Source of the DNA: the human T2T-CHM13v2.0 reference genome, Homo sapiens
Direction: 5' to 3' (one strand)
Length of the DNA stretch: 64,000 nt
Assembly: GCF_009914755.1 (NCBI RefSeq)
Contig: NC_060927.1
This document shows positions 18,491 through 39,860 of the stretch, one piece after another. How positions within the stretch are numbered: position 1 is the stretch's first letter; each line of letters opens with the position of its first letter. The notes beneath the pieces are model-generated. The model was not told the origin of the DNA. It was given only the letters and a program-made list of their open reading frames with translations, and made no database searches. The translations under genes and the position numbers were made by a program.

Positions 18491-18803
<313 letters not shown>

Positions 18804-21339: not shown

Positions 21340-21405
<66 letters not shown>

Positions 21406-23402: not shown

Positions 23403-23470
23403 TGTGTGTGTATATATATGTGGGTGTGGGTGTGTGTGTGTGTGTGTATGCGTGTGTGTGTGTTTGTGTG
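23403..23470. repeat. Imperfect (TG)n microsatellite
   Basis: Seen directly. Confidence 0.9.
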
Positions 23471-23494
23471 AATAGAGAAAAGTATGTATATGGG

Positions 23495-24205
23495 CAGTCA
23501 ATTCTCATTATTTGCATTATTTATGTTATGTAAAGTTGAATTAGCCACTATTCCTATGGGAAATAAAGAATTAGGTTTCTGTGAGCCTCTGGTCACAATG
23601 TTTCTGTCAACCAATCAAAACAAAACCTTGTTTTATGTGTGTTTTATGTGTGTTTCTGTTTGAAATATGACTTCATATATATTTTCACAAATAATTATAT
23701 GCATTATTTCTTTATAATAACACACTAGTCAAGAAGAGTTTAAATTTTTCCTGAACCTGGGTAAAATGAATATAAATTTCTCTGACTTTCAGCCTCAGAA
23801 CAATGTTGTCCATTATGCCTATTTTTATCAGGCATCATCTCATGAATCCCAAATTCAGCCATTTCTCCCTTCCATAGCTTTATCAGGCACTACTGATGCT
23901 ACTTTAGCACTTTCCAGAGCAACCTCACCTACAGGCACATATCAGCCAATTTCCTCTTTCTTTCTCTGGATGTACCCTATTGTGGATTGCTTAGCATTGG
24001 GCTTAGAGTTAACAGCATTAAAACTCATGCCTGAATGAAGCTTATCTAACACATGCATTTTTTCCATAATGCACATCACAGCTTTCCTGAGCTTAAAAAC
24101 ACTGGACAGCACTTCAGCAGTACTCTTGGGAGCGATTTTAAAGAGAAAAATTGCCAAGAAAAAGTACAAAAATGGGAAGAAGTGGCACTAAAGTGACAAT
24201 GAAAA
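23495..24205 (-). mobile_element. Tigger6/MER82-family DNA transposon, truncated on the right
   Basis: Left TIR cagtcaattctcattatttgc; ORF 23942-24169 APKSTAEVLSSVFKLRKAVMCIMEKMHVLDKLHSGMS resembles a Tigger transposase N-terminal HTH; no right TIR found. Confidence 0.8.
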
Positions 24206-24234
24206 AAAATTCTTGGAAATATATATATATGTAT

Positions 24235-24442
24235 ATTTCAGAGCCTTTCCTCATTACACCCATCCTTGCTTACCTCTCTTACATTTCCGCCCCATCTTTG
24301 TTTCTTCTTTCTCCTTAAGTTTATTTCCTTCTTGTAAAAGAAAATTTAGCTAAGATTGATAGGTTCAAGAAGTAAAACCAAAAAAAAAAAACAGTTACAA
24401 TCAAAAATTACCAGTGAAAATTGTGGTACACACATACACACA
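24235..24442 (+). repeat. Left arm of long inverted repeat
   Basis: atttcagagcctttcctcattacacccatccttgc...ttaccagtgaaaattgtggtacacac is the reverse complement of 28325-28554. Confidence 0.95.
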
Positions 24443-24467
24443 TATATATATACACGTGTGTGTGTGT

Positions 24468-25968
24468 ATACATATATCCAAGAGGATATATATATATATA
24501 TCCATCCAAGAGGACATATATATATGTATATATATCCAAGAGGATATATATATATATATATATATATCCAAGAGGATATATATATATGTATATATATCCA
24601 AGAGGATATATATATATGTATATATATCCAAGAGGATATATATATATGTATATATATCCAAGAGGATATATATATATGTATATATATCCAAGAGGATATA
24701 TATATATATGTATATATATCCAAGAGGATATATATATATGTATATATATCCAAGAGGATATATATATATGTATATATATCCAAGAGGATATATATATATG
24801 TATATATATCCAAGAGGATATATATATGTATATATATCCAAGAGGATATATATATATGTATATATATCCAAGAGGATATATATATGTATATATATCCAAG
24901 AGGATATATATATGTATATATATCCAAGAGGATATATATATATAAGAGGATATATATATATATCCAAGAGGATATATATACATATATCTTATATCCATCC
25001 AAGAGGATATATATATACACATCCATCCAAGAGGATATATATATCCAAGAGGATACATATATATATCCAAGAGGATACATATATATATCCAAGAGGATAC
25101 ATATATATATCCAAGAGGATATATATATACACAAGGGGATATATAGACACAAGAGGATATATATATAGACACAAGAGGATATATATATATCCAAGAGGAT
25201 ATATATATATATCTCCAAGAGGATATATATATATACACAAGAGGATATATATATATACACACAAGAGGATATATATATGTACACACAAGAGGATATATAT
25301 ATATATATATCCAAGAGGATATATATATATATATCCAAGAGGATATATATATATATATATATCCAAGAGGATATATATATATATATATATATCCAAGAGG
25401 ATATATATATATATATATATATCCAAGAGGATATATATATATATATATATATCCAAGAGGATATATATATATATATATATATCCAAGAGGATATATATAT
25501 ATATATATATATCCAAGAGGATATATATATATATATATATATCCAAGAGGATATATATATATATATATATATCCAAGAGGATATATATATATATATATAT
25601 ATCCAAGAGGATATATATATATATATATATATCCAAGAGGATATATATATATATATATATCCAAGGGGATATATATATATATATATATCCAAGGGGATAT
25701 ATATATATATATATCCAAGGGGATATATATATATATATATCCAAGGGGATATATATATATATATATCCAAGGGGATATATATATATATATATCCAAGGGG
25801 ATATATATATATATATATCCAAGGGGATATATATATATATCTCCAAGGGGATATATATATATATATCTCCAAGGGGATATATATATATATCTCCAAGGGG
25901 ATATATATATATATATATCTCCAAGAGGGGATATATATATATATATATATATATATCTCCAAGAGGGG

Positions 25969-26000
<32 letters not shown>

Positions 26001-26611
26001 CCAAGAGGGGATATATATATATATACACACACAAGAGGTGATATATATACATATATATATCTCCAAGAGGTGATTGATATATATATATATATATCTCCAA
26101 GAGGAGATGTATATATATATATATATATATATATCCAAGAGGAGATATATATATATATATATATATATCCAAGAGGAGATATATATATCTCCAAGAGGAT
26201 ATATATATATATATCTCTCTCTCCAAGAGGATATATATATATCTCTCTCCAAGAGGATATATATATATATATCTCTCTCTCTACAAGAGGAGATATATAT
26301 ATATATATATCTCCAAGAGGAGATATATATATATATATATCTCCAAAAGGAGATATATATATATATATCTCCTCTAGGAGAGATATATATATATATATAT
26401 ATATCTCCAAGAGGAGATATATATATATATATATATATCTCCTCTAGGAGATATATATATATATCTCCAAGAGGAGATATATATATATATCTCCAAGAGG
26501 AGATATATATATATATCTCCAAGAGGAGATATATATATATATCTCCAAGAGGAGATATATATATATATATATATCTCCAAGAGGAGATATATATATATAT
26601 ATATCTCCAAG

Positions 26612-26654
<43 letters not shown>

Positions 26655-26805
26655 CAAGAGGGATATATATATATATATATCTCCAAGAGGGATATATATA
26701 TATATATCTCTCCAAGAGGGATATATATATATATATATCTCCAAGAGGGATATATATATATATATATCTCCAAGAGGGATATATATATATATATATATCT
26801 CCAAG

Positions 26806-26846
<41 letters not shown>

Positions 26847-26883
26847 CAAGAGGGATATATATATATATATATATATCTCCAAG

Positions 26884-26926
<43 letters not shown>

Positions 26927-28320
26927 CAAGAGGGATATATATATATATCTCCAAGAGGGATATATATATATATCTCCAAGAGGGATATATATATATATAT
27001 ATCTCCAAGAGGGATACATATATATATATCTATCTCCAAGAGGGATATATATATATAATATATCTATCTCCAAGAGGAGATAGATATATATATATCTCTC
27101 CAAGAAGAGACAGATACATATATATCTCTCCAAGAGGAGACATATATATATCTCCAAGAGGATATATATATATATATATCTCCAAGAGGATATATATATA
27201 TATATATCTCCAAGAGGATATATATATATATATATCTCTCCAAGAGGATATATATATATATATATATCTCTCCAAGAGGATATATATATATATATATATA
27301 TATCTCCAAGAGGATATATATATATATATATATCTCCAAGAGGATATATATATATCTCTCCAAGAGGATATATATACATATATCTCTCTCCAAGAGGATA
27401 TATATATCTCTCTCCACGAGGATATATATACATATATCTCTCTCCAAGAGGATATATATACATATATCTCTCTCCAAGAGGATATATATATATATATCTC
27501 CAAGAGGGATATATATATATATATCCAAGAGGATATATATACACATATATATATCCAAGAGGATATATATACACATATATATATCCAAGAGGATATATCT
27601 ATATATATATATATCCAAGAGGATATATCTATATATATATATATCCAAGAGGATATATCTATATATATATATATATCCAAGAGGATATATCTATATATAT
27701 ATATATATCCAAGAGGATATATCTATATATATATATATCCAAGAGGATATATATATATATATATATATCCAAGAGGATATATATATATATATATATATCC
27801 AAGAGGATATATATATATATATATATCCAAGAGGATATATCTATATATATATATATATATATCCAAGAGGATATATCTATATATATATATATAGCCAAGA
27901 GGATATATCTATATATATATATATATCCAAGAGGATATATCTATATATATATATATATCCAAGAGGATATATCTATATATATATATATATCCAAGAGGAT
28001 ATATCTATATATATATATATATCCAAGAGGATATATCTATATATAGATATATCCAAGAGGATATATCTATATATAGATATATCCAAGAGGATATATCTAT
28101 ATATAGATATATCCAAGAGGATATATCTATATATAGATATATATAGATATATATCTCCTTCGTTACATATATATATCCATATCCAAGATATATATATTAT
28201 ATATATATCCATATCCAAGATATATATATTATATATATATCCATATCCAAGATATATATATTATATATATATCCATATCCAAGATATATATATATTATAT
28301 ATATAATGTATCTCCAAGAG
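24468..28320. repeat. AT-rich VNTR, unit (TA)n-CC-AAGA-GG-(AT)n, mostly ~20-45 bp, roughly 130-140 units (estimated from length)
   Basis: Seen directly; variant cores ccaagagga, ccaagggga, ctccaagaggaga, ctccaagaggga occur in blocks. Confidence 0.98.
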
Positions 28321-28324
28321 TTTC

Positions 28325-28355
<31 letters not shown>

Positions 28356-28554
28356 TGTATACCACAATTTTCACTGGTAACTTTTTATCATAACTCTTCC
28401 TTCTTTGGTTTCACTTCTCTTTGTACCTATCAATCTTAGCTAAATTTTCTTTTACAAGAAGGAAATAAATTAAAGGAAAAAGAAGAAACAAAGATGCAGT
28501 CGAAGTGTAAGGGAGATAAGCAAGGATGGGTGTAGTGAGGAAAGGCTTTGAAAT
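28325..28554 (-). repeat. Right arm of long inverted repeat, including (GT)n
   Basis: gtgtataccacaattttcactggtaa...gcaaggatgggtgtagtgaggaaaggctttgaaat; shares a 45-bp perfect stretch with the left arm. Confidence 0.95.
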
Positions 28555-29706
28555 TGTCCCAAACAGCAGATTTAATAACAAATACAGTCTCTAAAGAAAA
28601 TGTTTATAATCAGTTTCTTCCTTAGAGACAAGTAACAAATAGAAAAAATACATGTAAGTGTTGGCCATTGAAGGAAAGAATGATTATAGAAGATATTTAG
28701 GGTTTACTTTTTTACTGCTTATATCATTTTCTGATCAAAATTTTATCTAATAACTTGATTTACTAATAACAATATGCACCACTTGCAATTCTGGGCTCTA
28801 GGGCCTCGGCATTAAGAAATTGGATAAGGTCTTTAATCCCTTGAATTTCATAAAAATGGGAAGGTGTGAGACCTTCAAAGTGGCACATCTTTAATTACTC
28901 ACATACTTAAGTTGAGGTGTGGGCAGTTTCTCCGAGTCTGCACTAACTCCGAGTCTGAATGAACTTTAACTTCATTTAAAGAAAATCTCCATGCTTAGAC
29001 AAAGAGGCTAGAAATGAATCATAGTGAGTGACATGCTCTGATTCTCATTCCTCGTCTCTATGATGTCAATGTTTCAAGGCAGTTTCCTGTGGTGCCAGAG
29101 CAATAGTAGCATTGTGCATTCTTCTCAGGTCATCACATGGAACGAGCAATAGAAATCCAATATTATTTTCTAAAGCACAGAAGAAATAAAATTATATTTC
29201 TTCTATGCAACATCATTTCCCCATAAATCTTTCTTAACAGATATTATTTATCTGAGTCAACACTTCCTTACAGTCTATCCACATCCTATTAGTCCTAGTT
29301 TAGAGTTGGCAAAACAAAAGATAGATTTTCATGTGGGAAGAACTGTTGAATGGCAAATGTAGCCAAGATGGCTTGTCATTTTGCCTTTTCGTGCCCAATA
29401 TAGATCAACTGTGCCACTGATCAGCTAAAGCAAATCCTCCCATCCATAAAGAGTAGAAAGTGTTATACCACAGTAAAAGAGTCCTTTATGTTCATGCACT
29501 ACTCAACAAGCATTCTTGCCGAGAGCCTAGTAGCTGCTGGGAGCTATGCCAAGCACTGAAGAAAAGCTATAAAAAAAATATAGACAATGTCCCTAATATC
29601 ACGCATTGACCATTTGGTTGAAGGAGATACACAATAAACAAACAAACACACAAAGTAATTTCAGATTGTGAGGACTATGAAGAAAAAATTTTAAGAACAG
29701 AAAGTA

Positions 29707-31500
<1,794 letters not shown>

Positions 31501-34007: not shown

Positions 34008-34311
34008 TTTTGTTTTTATTTTTATTTTGAGATAGGGCCTTTCTCTGTCACCCAGGCTGGAGTGTAGTGATGCCATTATAGCGCCCTATACCCTCAAATT
34101 CCTGGGCTCAAGCGATCCTCCTGCCTTGGCCTCCCAAGTAGCTAAAACTAGAGGTGTATACCACTACACCTGGTTATTTTTTTATTTTTTTATGGCAATG
34201 GGGTCTCACTGTGTTGCCCAGGCTGATCTAGAAATCCTGGCCTCAAGTGATCCTCCTGCTTCAGCTTCTGAAAGCACTGGGATTCCAGGCATAAGCCACC
34301 ATGCTCAGCCC
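34008..34311 (-). mobile_element. AluJ
   Basis: ttcctgggctcaagcgatcctcctgcc and gggtctcactgtgttgcccaggctg J-type diagnostics. Confidence 0.9.
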
Positions 34312-39615: not shown

Positions 39616-39860
39616 CCAGATCCCTTACCCCTGATCTCATGGCCAGATCCCTTATTTATTTATCTCATGGACAGATTCCTTATCTCTTTATCTCATAGCT
39701 AAATTTCTTACCTCCTTACTTCATGGAGAGATCCCTTACCTCCTTACCTCATGACCAGATCCCTTACCTCCTTACCTCATTGCTAAATTTCTTACCTACT
39801 CACTCCATAGCTAAATTCCTTACTTACTCGCCTCTAGCTAAATCCTTTACCTCCTTCAGG
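39616..39860. repeat. Degenerate 28-bp minisatellite, ~9 copies, within L2
   Basis: Units such as ccagatcccttacctccttacctcattg and ctaaatttcttacctccttacttcatgg. Confidence 0.85.

What the first reader, a model, noticed from the sequence alone, without database searches (positions are those of the whole stretch)
24235..28554. ~4.3-kb PATRR-like quasi-palindrome: inverted arms around a self-complementary AT-rich array
Seen: 24235-24442 and 28325-28554 are reverse complements, ~87% identical by hand count, with a 45-bp perfect run tttatttccttcttgtaaaagaaaatttagctaagattgataggt. The spacer units are palindromic except for a 4-nt loop, so the spacer is nearly its own reverse complement and the whole block could fold back. 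Established: palindromic AT-rich repeats drive recurrent translocations such as t(11;22). AT-rich minisatellites underlie FRA16B and FRA10B. Long (TA)n tracts form MUS81-cleaved structures that need WRN. Inference: this may be an undescribed cruciform-forming, fragile or size-polymorphic locus that short reads would collapse.
Basis: partly seen in the sequence, partly recalled or inferred. Interest (0 to 1): 0.85.

Follow-up and report, generated by a model that had tools for sequence, protein, structure and literature searches.

The report
Hairpin-unit AT-rich minisatellite between inverted arms
A 3.9-kb run of about 126 head-to-tail copies of a 30-base, hairpin-forming, AT-rich unit sits in a KCNMB2 intron between two old inverted copies of a single-copy 200-base sequence; it is a real, structure-prone and already published hypervariable repeat, but not a translocation-type palindrome.

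Summary
Two ~200-nt arms are reverse complements: 168 matches, 22 mismatches, 13 gap columns, and a 45-nt perfect run. Each arm matches only its partner in the whole genome, even at E<=10. Between them lies a 30-bp-period array.

The PATRR reading fails. All 126 units point the same way, so this is a head-to-tail minisatellite and not a mirrored palindrome. The array is only 72% identical to its own reverse complement, against 69% for a reversed-only control. The arms are 67% AT and the array is 78% AT.

Single strands fold into strings of 26-bp hairpins, z = -12 to -24. 26 consecutive 300-nt segments fall below -40 kcal/mol; the published fragility criterion needs 7 (PMC6765107).

This is the only AT-tract cluster in the 314 kb spanning KCNMB2. 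It therefore matches the ">3 kb, 135 TRs, 116 AT" KCNMB2 variation cluster shown as highly polymorphic in 100 HiFi genomes.

Best reading: an FRA16B/FRA10B-class AT-rich minisatellite (a long AT-dinucleotide-rich sequence) that grew at the centre of an old local inverted duplication. It is a new member of a known kind, of modest interest.

The parts
24236..24428 (+). Left arm, single-copy part (67% AT)
   Evidence: Aligns to the reverse complement of 28353-28553 with 168 matches, 22 mismatches and 13 gap columns. Its only genome-wide matches are itself and the right arm, even at E<=10. On its own it is unstructured (z +1.25).
24274..24327 (-). KCNMB2-AS1 exon lying inside the left arm
   Evidence: Position from the hub annotation. 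On the minus strand the exon is flanked by ag|...|gtaagc. At the matching position the right-arm copy reads GATAAG instead of GGTAAG (alignment).
24429..24478 (+). Left inner compound microsatellite: (CA)n, (TA)n, CACGTG at 24453-24458, (TG)n, ATACATATAT
   Evidence: Read directly from the sequence. BLAST carries the arm homology on to 24455.
24479..28324 (+). AT-rich minisatellite. 126 units all in one orientation; each unit is a GGA(TA)nTCC palindrome plus AAGA; modal unit length 30 bp; 22% GC
   Evidence: TRF: 24467-28305, period 30, 130.3 copies. 126 CAAG against 0 CTTG, with 37 of 125 anchor spacings equal to 30. 76 distinct units, and 53 of 126 lie in runs of identical neighbours. The motif is unique to this locus genome-wide.
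25364..25633 (+). Longest homogeneous block: 9 identical 30-mers
   Evidence: The first four of these units fold as 25- and 26-bp stems with 4-nt loops, one hairpin per two units (z -12.4, 0 of 200 shuffles as good).
26369..26450 (+). Two units whose loop reads CTCC-TCTA-GGAG (26369-26380 and 26439-26450), plus the 36-bp perfect palindrome at 26410-26445 that they create
   Evidence: TCTA equals the reverse complement of AAGA at 3 of 4 positions. This is the pattern expected from hairpin-templated strand switching; that reading is an inference.
28184..28314 (+). Degenerate right-edge units (CCATATCCAAGATATATATATTATATATATAT, 4 copies) that lack the GG clamp
28315..28358 (+). Right junction: the last core, CAAGAGTTTC, runs straight into (GT)17
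   Evidence: TRF reports 28325-28358, period 2, 17 copies.
28353..28553 (-). Right arm, single-copy part (67% AT)
   Evidence: On its own it is unstructured (z +0.83).

Best explanation
This is a hypervariable, hairpin-forming, AT-rich minisatellite. It belongs with the FRA16B/FRA10B repeats and the long 'AT-dinucleotide-rich sequences' of common fragile sites. It lies at the centre of an old, single-copy, local inverted duplication.

Shown:
- There are about 126 head-to-tail units. Each is a perfect palindrome GGA(TA)nTCC plus a 4-nt AAGA.
- Neighbouring units pair into stems of up to 26 bp.
- The arms are roughly 12% diverged and exist nowhere else in the genome.

Inferred:
- The inverted duplication came first. 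Its inner ends carry (CA)n/(TG)n on both sides.
- The array then grew from the short asymmetric centre, (TA)n-CCAAGAG-TTTCG. It grew by replication slippage, which hairpins on the nascent or lagging strand promote.
- Block-wise homogenisation and occasional hairpin-templated strand switches followed.
- Today the relevant structures are local: unit-scale hairpins, and small cruciforms at most. These make the array length-unstable and probably hard to replicate under stress.
- The diverged arms, 3.9 kb apart, are relics and not a working cruciform.
- No cellular function is implied.
For: - One orientation only: 126 CAAG against 0 CTTG, and 110 AAGAGG against 0 CCTCTT. The 24-mer motif hits 65 times forward and 0 reverse, all inside the array, with controls 0/0.
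- Arms single-copy: the 2 matches per search are the arm itself and its partner, at E<=0.001 and at E<=10. There is no other inverted homology within +-10 kb apart from Alu-like pairs.
- Both arms end inward in (CA)n...CACG, and the last unit core abuts TTTCG(TG)n.
- Local hairpins dominate. In the 4,320-nt single-strand fold, 862 of 1807 pairs span under 80 nt and 1240 span under 200. Only 49 of the pairs spanning over 2 kb are not arm-to-arm pairs.
- Folding z-scores are -24.1 for a 1-kb piece (0 of 20 shuffles as good) and -12.4 and -10.4 for the two strands of a homogeneous block (0 of 200).
- Recent local expansion: 53 of 126 units sit in runs of identical neighbours, and the longest run is 9.
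- Hairpin-templated change: two TCTA loops create a 36-bp perfect palindrome, and 13 CTCC...GGAG doubly changed clamps still pair.
- Published fragility criterion met: 26 consecutive 300-nt segments below -40 kcal/mol, where 7 are needed. AT/TA dinucleotides make up 59% of the array against 15.5% in the flanks. The criterion is from PMC6765107, passages.
- Polymorphism: the KCNMB2 variation cluster in 100 HiFi samples. Its identity with this array follows from 148 of 200 AT tracts in 314 kb lying here, with no other 1-kb bin holding more than 5.
Against: - No outgroup genome could be searched, so the order of events (arms first or array first) and the age are inferences.
- The variation-cluster paper gives no coordinates in its text, and KCNMB2 does not occur in its 6 held supplement files. 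Identity therefore rests on uniqueness within the gene.
- AT content is 78%, below FRA10B (91%) and below the FRA16B block in this same genome (90%).
- The longest pure (TA)n is 18 repeats, below the ~22 quoted for cruciforms in duplex DNA. S1-END-seq found (TA)n cruciforms only in microsatellite-unstable lines.
- 55 of 126 loops have a perfect stem of only 3 bp or less.
- My energy threshold test used ViennaRNA DNA parameters, whereas the paper used Mfold.
- No breakage or cytogenetic data exist for this locus in anything I could read.
Confidence: 0.72

Rival explanations
1. One reading: a PATRR-like long quasi-palindrome whose whole 4.3-kb block folds back or extrudes a cruciform, and which drives recurrent translocations or breaks at its centre.
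For: The arms are inverted, and in an unconstrained 4,320-nt single-strand fold they pair with each other (188 arm-to-arm pairs). The array is rich in palindromes: 76 perfect ones of 24 bp or more, the longest 38 bp.
Against: - Units are all in one orientation.
- The array is 72% identical to its own reverse complement, against 69% for a reversed-only control.
- The arms are 88% identical at best and 67% AT, and they lie 3.9 kb apart.
- PATRRs are over 90% AT, nearly perfect and spacer-less (PMC4940405).
- In yeast, spacers above 8 nt already abolish the fork block at Alu inverted repeats (PMC8053094).
- Folding back would need 4.3 kb of continuous single strand.
Confidence: 0.05
2. Array first. 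A pre-existing AT-rich tract stalled or broke a replication fork, and fold-back (template-switch) synthesis then copied ~200 nt of the left flank in inverted orientation to make the right arm.
For: The arms are a unique local duplication with alternating purine-pyrimidine microsatellite at both inner ends. The same array shows template-switch signatures. Template switching at inverted repeats is an established process (PMC8604942 and PMC7954356; listing and abstract openings only).
Against: Fold-back from inside an array should leave mirrored units next to the new arm. None of the 126 units is reversed. The right-edge units are degenerate but still in forward orientation. Later turnover could have erased such traces, so this is not excluded.
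Confidence: 0.15
3. The arms are the terminal inverted repeats of a DNA transposon or MITE whose AT-rich interior expanded.
For: The layout is ~200-nt inverted termini around an AT-rich interior.
Against: Neither arm has any other copy in a 3.1-Gb genome, even at E<=10. The arms are not soft-masked in the hub's repeat list. Reading the junctions showed no target-site duplication...GTATATTTCAG on the left and ...CTTTGAAATTGTCC on the right. The search tool states that its counts are lower bounds, so very old families could escape it.
Confidence: 0.03
4. An assembly artefact, or a collapsed or expanded array in this one assembly.
For: Long low-complexity AT arrays are hard to assemble.
Against: The text of 10.1101/2024.10.04.615514 describes HiFi reads spanning the KCNMB2 cluster in HG002, and a cluster of over 3 kb in a different reference. 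The array has 76 distinct units in an ordered block structure, which a collapse would not produce.
Confidence: 0.02

Closest known systems
AT-rich minisatellites of the rare fragile sites FRA16B (33-bp unit) and FRA10B (~42-bp unit)
   Same: A tandem array of ~30-bp AT-rich units that form hairpins and vary in length. FRA16B DNA stalls replication with only 14 copies (PMC2875025 and PMC9714581). The AT-rich block is 3.8 kb at FRA16B in this genome and 3.9 kb here.
   Different: - AT content here is 78%, against 90-91%.
- The units carry CC/GG clamps and long pure (TA)n stretches, up to 36 nt here against 11 nt at FRA16B.
- Predicted hairpin energy per nucleotide is about twice as strong: -0.31 against -0.17 kcal/mol.
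- About 126 copies in an ordinary haplotype, against 7-12 for normal FRA16B alleles in the literature and about 20 in this genome.
- Single-copy inverted arms flank this array. None was found in the 1.2-kb and 1.5-kb flanks of FRA16B.
- No cytogenetic fragile site is known at this locus. A search for KCNMB2 with 'fragile site' returned 2 papers, both irrelevant by title.
Long AT-dinucleotide-rich sequences (AT-DRS, 3 kb or more) of common fragile sites, for example the 3.4-kb FRA16C fragment (PMC6765107)
   Same: Length above 3 kb, a high AT/TA dinucleotide fraction (59% against 66%), and a long run of 300-nt segments predicted to fold below -40 kcal/mol (26 consecutive; the criterion needs 7)..
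   Different: This array is a regular 30-bp minisatellite, not an irregular AT-rich island. I could not establish whether it is one of the paper's 31 listed loci, because only 109 characters of the supplement could be read.
PATRRs (PATRR11, 22, 17, 8)
   Same: Inverted symmetry with an AT-rich centre and less AT-rich ends, plus size polymorphism.
   Different: PATRRs are several hundred bp long, over 90% AT, nearly perfect and spacer-less. Here the arms are 88% identical at best, 67% AT, and separated by 3.9 kb of direct repeats.
Expanded (TA)n tracts that need WRN and are cut by MUS81
   Same: (TA)n-based self-complementary DNA.
   Different: Those are long uninterrupted (TA)n tracts, seen as cruciforms only in microsatellite-unstable cells. 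Here every tract is interrupted about every 30 bp, and the longest is (TA)18.

Membership tests
PATRR | More than 90% AT | tested here: not met
   The arms are 67% AT and the array is 78% AT. The definition is from PMC4940405.
PATRR | Nearly perfect palindrome several hundred bp long | tested here: not met
   Arm identity is 88% without gaps and 83% with them. The array is 72% identical to its own reverse complement, against 69% for a reversed-only control.
PATRR | No spacer at the centre of symmetry | tested here: not met
   3.9 kb of head-to-tail units lies between the arms, and none of the 126 units is reversed.
PATRR | Recurrent translocation breakpoints at the centre | not testable with these tools
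   No breakpoint data were available.
AT-rich minisatellite of the FRA16B/FRA10B type | Tandem array of AT-rich units of roughly 30-42 bp | tested here: met
   Period 30, 130 copies and 78% AT. This is lower than the 90-91% of FRA10B and FRA16B.
AT-rich minisatellite of the FRA16B/FRA10B type | Single strands fold into stable secondary structure | tested here: met
   z -24.1 and z -12.4 and -10.4. These are computational results only.
AT-rich minisatellite of the FRA16B/FRA10B type | Length polymorphism or dynamic mutation | tested here: inconclusive
   Only one haplotype was in hand. Runs of identical units and the published KCNMB2 variation cluster (with locus identity inferred) both point to polymorphism.
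AT-rich minisatellite of the FRA16B/FRA10B type | Cytogenetic fragility of expanded alleles (FRA10B above 5 kb) under distamycin A or BrdU | not testable with these tools
   The threshold is from PMC9714581. This allele is 3.9 kb.
Long AT-DRS (PMC6765107) | At least 3 kb, with at least 7 consecutive 300-nt segments below -40 kcal/mol | tested here: met
   26 consecutive segments, computed with ViennaRNA DNA parameters and not Mfold. TwistFlex flexibility was not computed.
DNA transposon / MITE | Multiple copies in the genome, with a target-site duplication | tested here: not met
   The only matches are the two arms. No duplication is visible at the junctions.
WRN-dependent (TA)n cruciform site | Uninterrupted (TA)n above about 22 repeats | tested here: not met
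   The longest pure runs are 36, 36 and 34 nt, that is 18 repeats or fewer. The threshold is from the introduction of PMC11797062.

The most novel reading that the evidence does not exclude
The array is a natural record of hairpin-driven repeat birth. On this reading the tip of an ancient palindrome was copied in tandem, and the units then evolved towards better hairpins by template switching: CC/GG and CTCC/GGAG clamps, and inverted TCTA loops. Better hairpins in turn expanded preferentially. The longest alleles (above ~5 kb) would form an unrecognised AT-rich-minisatellite fragile site at 3q26.32. The inverted arms would also offer a built-in read-out of array inversion.
Probability: 0.12. 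Interest if true: 0.6.

Novelty: new member of a known kind. Interest (0 to 1): 0.3.

Why it matters
The locus is one of the longest regular hairpin-unit AT-rich arrays one can read in a normal haplotype. By published computational criteria it should be hard to replicate under stress.

If long alleles prove fragile, it would add a third sequence-defined AT-minisatellite fragile site. Its unit maps are unusually easy to read, which makes it a tractable model for how such arrays arise and grow.

In practice it is an intronic region of KCNMB2 and KCNMB2-AS1 where short-read genotypes and flank variants should not be trusted.

It does not open a new category. The class, the mechanism and the locus's hypervariability are already in print.

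Tried and rejected
- **Rfam.** A scan of 23500-29500 gave 0 families.
- **Inverted-repeat finder.** Run over the block, it was swamped: 3900 pairs, and the 25 longest were all inside the array. The arms needed direct alignment.
- **KCNMB2 literature searches.**
  - With 'AT-rich': 10 papers, none relevant by title.
  - With 'VNTR': 6 papers held the terms and 3 were listed; 1 was relevant.
  - With 'tandem repeat' and 'long-read': the same paper.
  - With 'fragile site': 2 papers, both irrelevant by title.
- **The variation-cluster paper.** Its main text has 0 occurrences of chr3, palindrom-, inverted or hairpin. Its 6 held supplement files have 0 occurrences of KCNMB2.
- **Supplementary Table S3 of PMC6765107** (the 31 long AT-DRS). 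It could not be read; only 109 characters were held. The locus may be listed there.
- **The fragile-site review PMC9714581.** It has no mention of 3q25, 3q26, 3q27, FRA3C or FRA3D.
- **Genome-wide FRA16B motif search at up to 2 mismatches.** Overall it was no better than its control: 75 forward and 70 reverse, against 78 and 53. Only the exact-match cluster on contig 16 was used.
- **Wider fetch around FRA16B.** Only 1.2-kb and 1.5-kb flanks were examined, so inverted arms farther out are not excluded.
- **Mirror symmetry of unit variants.** I considered whether G-interrupted units on the left and C-interrupted units on the right mirror each other. I rejected this by eye because the interruptions fall at different positions.
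- **Transposon target-site duplications.** Looked for by eye only.
Full report
**1. What is in the sequence**

Reading 24000-28800 shows three parts.

(i) Left arm, about 24236-24428. It runs inward into a compound microsatellite: (CA)n, (TA)n, CACGTG, (TG)n.

(ii) An AT-rich array.
- Tandem Repeats Finder reports 24467-28305 with period 30, 130.3 copies, 81% matches and 11% indels. The consensus unit is TATATATATATCCAAGAGGATATATATATA.
- GC is 17-28% in 300-nt windows of the array, against 31-51% in the flanks.

(iii) (GT)17 at 28325-28358, followed by the right arm to about 28553.

**2. The arms**

- A global alignment of 24236-24427 with the reverse complement of 28353-28553 gives 168 matches, 22 mismatches (16 transitions, 6 transversions) and 13 gap columns. 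The longest perfect run is 45 nt.
- BLAST gives 84.8% over 224 nt, E 7e-67.
- Across the 3.1-Gb assembly each arm finds only itself and its partner. This holds at E<=0.001 and at E<=10. The tool warns that its counts are lower bounds.
- Within +-10 kb the only other homologies between the flanks are Alu-like pairs and (TG)n.
The arms are a unique local inverted duplication.
- The Jukes-Cantor distance is 0.126. With substitution rates of 1-2.2e-9 per site per year (rates recalled, not from a call) this suggests roughly 30-60 Myr. Gene conversion between the arms would make them look younger. Mutagenic repair next to an unstable repeat would make them look older. No outgroup genome could be searched.
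- Alone, each arm is unstructured (z +1.25 and +0.83).

**3. The array is a direct repeat, not a mirrored one**

- Splitting at CAAG gives 126 units. The reverse anchor CTTG occurs 0 times, and AAGAGG occurs 110 times against 0 for CCTCTT.
- The 24-mer ATATATATCCAAGAGGATATATAT, at up to 1 mismatch, occurs 65 times forward and 0 times reverse in the whole genome. All hits lie in this array, and the controls are 0/0.
- The looser motif with any 4-nt loop has 43 sites genome-wide, 41 of them here. The control gives 1.
- Unit spacing is most often 30 (37 of 125), then 32 (16), 28 (12) and 26 (12).
- There are 76 distinct units. 53 of 126 lie in runs of identical neighbours, the longest being 9 identical 30-mers at 25364-25633.
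- Core variants sit in blocks: CAAGAGGA 76, CAAGAGGGA 15, CAAGAGGAGA 13, CAAGGGGA 11.
- The right edge carries 4 degenerate units without the GG clamp, and the last core runs straight into TTTCG(TG)n.

**4. Self-complementarity**

- Each unit is a perfect palindrome GGA(TA)nTCC plus AAGA.
- Around the 4-nt loops, 64 of 126 have perfect stems of at least 8 bp, 27 of 126 have at least 20 bp, and 55 of 126 have 3 bp or less. With up to 2 mismatches, 61 of 126 reach 20 bp.
- There are 76 perfect palindromes of 24 bp or more, the longest 38 bp. The longest pure AT-dinucleotide runs are 36, 36 and 34 nt.
- As a whole the array is only 72% identical to its own reverse complement. The controls give 69% for reversed-only, 78% for direct half against half, and 56-58% for two shuffles. 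The 'whole spacer is its own complement' idea mostly reflects (TA)n content.

**5. Folding**

- A homogeneous block folds as 26-bp stems with 4-nt loops, one hairpin per two units. On the plus strand z is -12.4 (0 of 200 shuffles as good). On the minus strand it is -10.4.
- Two less regular pieces give z -3.5 and -3.0.
- One kilobase gives -282.6 kcal/mol, against -163.5 +- 4.9 for shuffles: z -24.1, 0 of 20 as good.
- In an unconstrained fold of all 4,320 nt the arms do pair (188 pairs). However, 862 of 1807 pairs span under 80 nt and 1240 span under 200. Of the 237 pairs spanning over 2 kb, only 49 are not arm-to-arm pairs. The array prefers local hairpins, and arm pairing would need 4.3 kb of free single strand.

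**6. Signs that hairpins formed in vivo (inference)**

- Two units carry CTCC-TCTA-GGAG in place of CTCC-AAGA-GGAG (26369 and 26439).
- TCTA is the reverse complement of AAGA at 3 of 4 positions, and the second case completes a 36-bp perfect palindrome at 26410.
- Three clustered substitutions that extend a palindrome are what strand switching at inverted repeats produces. That process gives arm homogenisation and spacer inversion (PMC8604942 and related papers; listing and abstract openings only).
- Among 116 CC-loop-GG cores, 61 are ATCC/GGAT and 13 are CTCC/GGAG, so both types keep pairing. 19 CTCC/GGAT and 15 CTCC/GGGA do not pair. Units in a block share descent, so these are not independent events.

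**7. Comparison with known classes**

*PATRRs.* They are defined as several hundred bp long, over 90% AT, nearly perfect and spacer-less (PMC4940405, passages). All three testable features fail here. In yeast, spacers above 8 nt abolish the fork block at Alu inverted repeats (PMC8053094, passages).

*FRA16B and FRA10B.*
- The literature gives 33-bp and ~42-bp AT-rich units. FRA10B is fragile above 5 kb and is 91% AT. FRA16B reaches up to 2000 copies against 7-12 in normal alleles, and 14 copies are enough to stall forks (PMC9714581 and PMC2875025, passages).
- I located FRA16B in this same genome: 20 exact copies and 1 near copy at contig 16:71116536-71117176.
- It lies inside a 3.8-kb block that is 90% AT, with a longest AT-dinucleotide run of 11 nt.
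- Its 1.2-kb and 1.5-kb flanks share only hits at the AT-rich edges. The same test on the KCNMB2 flanks returned 211 nt at 86%, E 1e-68.
- Predicted hairpin energy per nucleotide is -0.17 for the FRA16B core and -0.31 for the KCNMB2 block.

*Long AT-dinucleotide-rich sequences (AT-DRS).*
- A 3.4-kb AT-DRS from FRA16C, 66% AT/TA dinucleotides, was enough to create an ectopic fragile site under replication stress.
- 31 AT-DRS of 3 kb or more exist in the genome, 14 of them in fragile-site bands.
- The fragility criterion is at least 7 consecutive 300-nt segments below -40 kcal/mol (PMC6765107; abstract, section 20 and passages).
- Here 26 consecutive segments pass, and AT/TA dinucleotides are 59% against 15.5% in the flanks (using ViennaRNA DNA parameters and not Mfold).
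- The paper's list (Table S3) could not be read.

*(TA)n cruciform sites.* Duplex cruciforms are quoted for more than ~22 perfect repeats (PMC11797062 introduction). S1-END-seq saw them only in microsatellite-unstable lines (bioRxiv 10.1101/2022.01.19.476973, passages). The maximum here is 18.

**8. Already in print**

[quoted passage not shown] The cluster spans over 3 kb in the reference and holds 135 tandem repeats, 116 of them with AT motifs. It is plotted across 100 HiFi samples.
- The text gives no coordinates and never mentions palindromes, inverted repeats or hairpins.
- I fetched the rest of the gene span, 314 kb in all. 148 of 200 AT-dinucleotide tracts of 8 nt or more lie in this array, and no other 1-kb bin holds more than 5. 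The published cluster is therefore this locus.
- Its hypervariability is thus known. I did not find its inverted arms and hairpin-unit anatomy described.

**9. Verdict**

- It is wrong in its headline: this is not PATRR-like, not one big palindrome, and not wholly undescribed.
- Most likely the array is a minisatellite that grew from the short asymmetric centre of an old local inverted duplication. It is maintained by hairpin-assisted slippage, and it has no evident cellular function.

Noticed in passing
window 24274-24327 (- strand) and 28450-28510 (+ strand): The 54-nt KCNMB2-AS1 exon lies wholly inside the left arm and has good splice sites (ag|...|gtaagc). The mirrored copy in the right arm, which is in KCNMB2 sense orientation, reads GATAAG where the donor GGTAAG would be. 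In the antisense pre-RNA the exon could be held in a ~200-bp arm-to-arm duplex; this was not tested.
   Followed up: partly
outside the window: L019, G000:C3:181417447 (window coordinate about -118553), and L014, 181374645: Elsewhere in KCNMB2 there are isolated pure AT-dinucleotide runs of 55 nt and 37 nt. The 55-nt run exceeds the ~22-repeat figure quoted for cruciform formation, which no tract in the array reaches.
   Followed up: no
window 23419-23474 and 21345-21372: A (TG)n microsatellite lies 0.8 kb left of the left arm and matches the right arm's (GT)17 at 88-94%. A 28-nt AT-dinucleotide run sits at 21345.
   Followed up: no
window 18496-18794, 29712-30016, 34008-34299: Alu-like repeat copies flank the locus. 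The first two are direct at 81%. The first and third are inverted at 70%.
   Followed up: no
window 39637-39808: An 84-bp unit repeated twice at 80% match. It is the only other tandem repeat in the window scoring 200 or more.
   Followed up: no
L038+L036+L039, G000:C16:71114201-71118000: In this genome the FRA16B locus is a 3.8-kb block at 90% AT. The classic 33-bp unit makes up only about 0.65 kb of it: 20 exact copies and 1 near copy.
   Followed up: partly
window 28150-28172: A short non-repeat insert, CTCCTTCGTTACATATA, interrupts the array just before the degenerate right-edge units. Its origin is unexplained.
   Followed up: no
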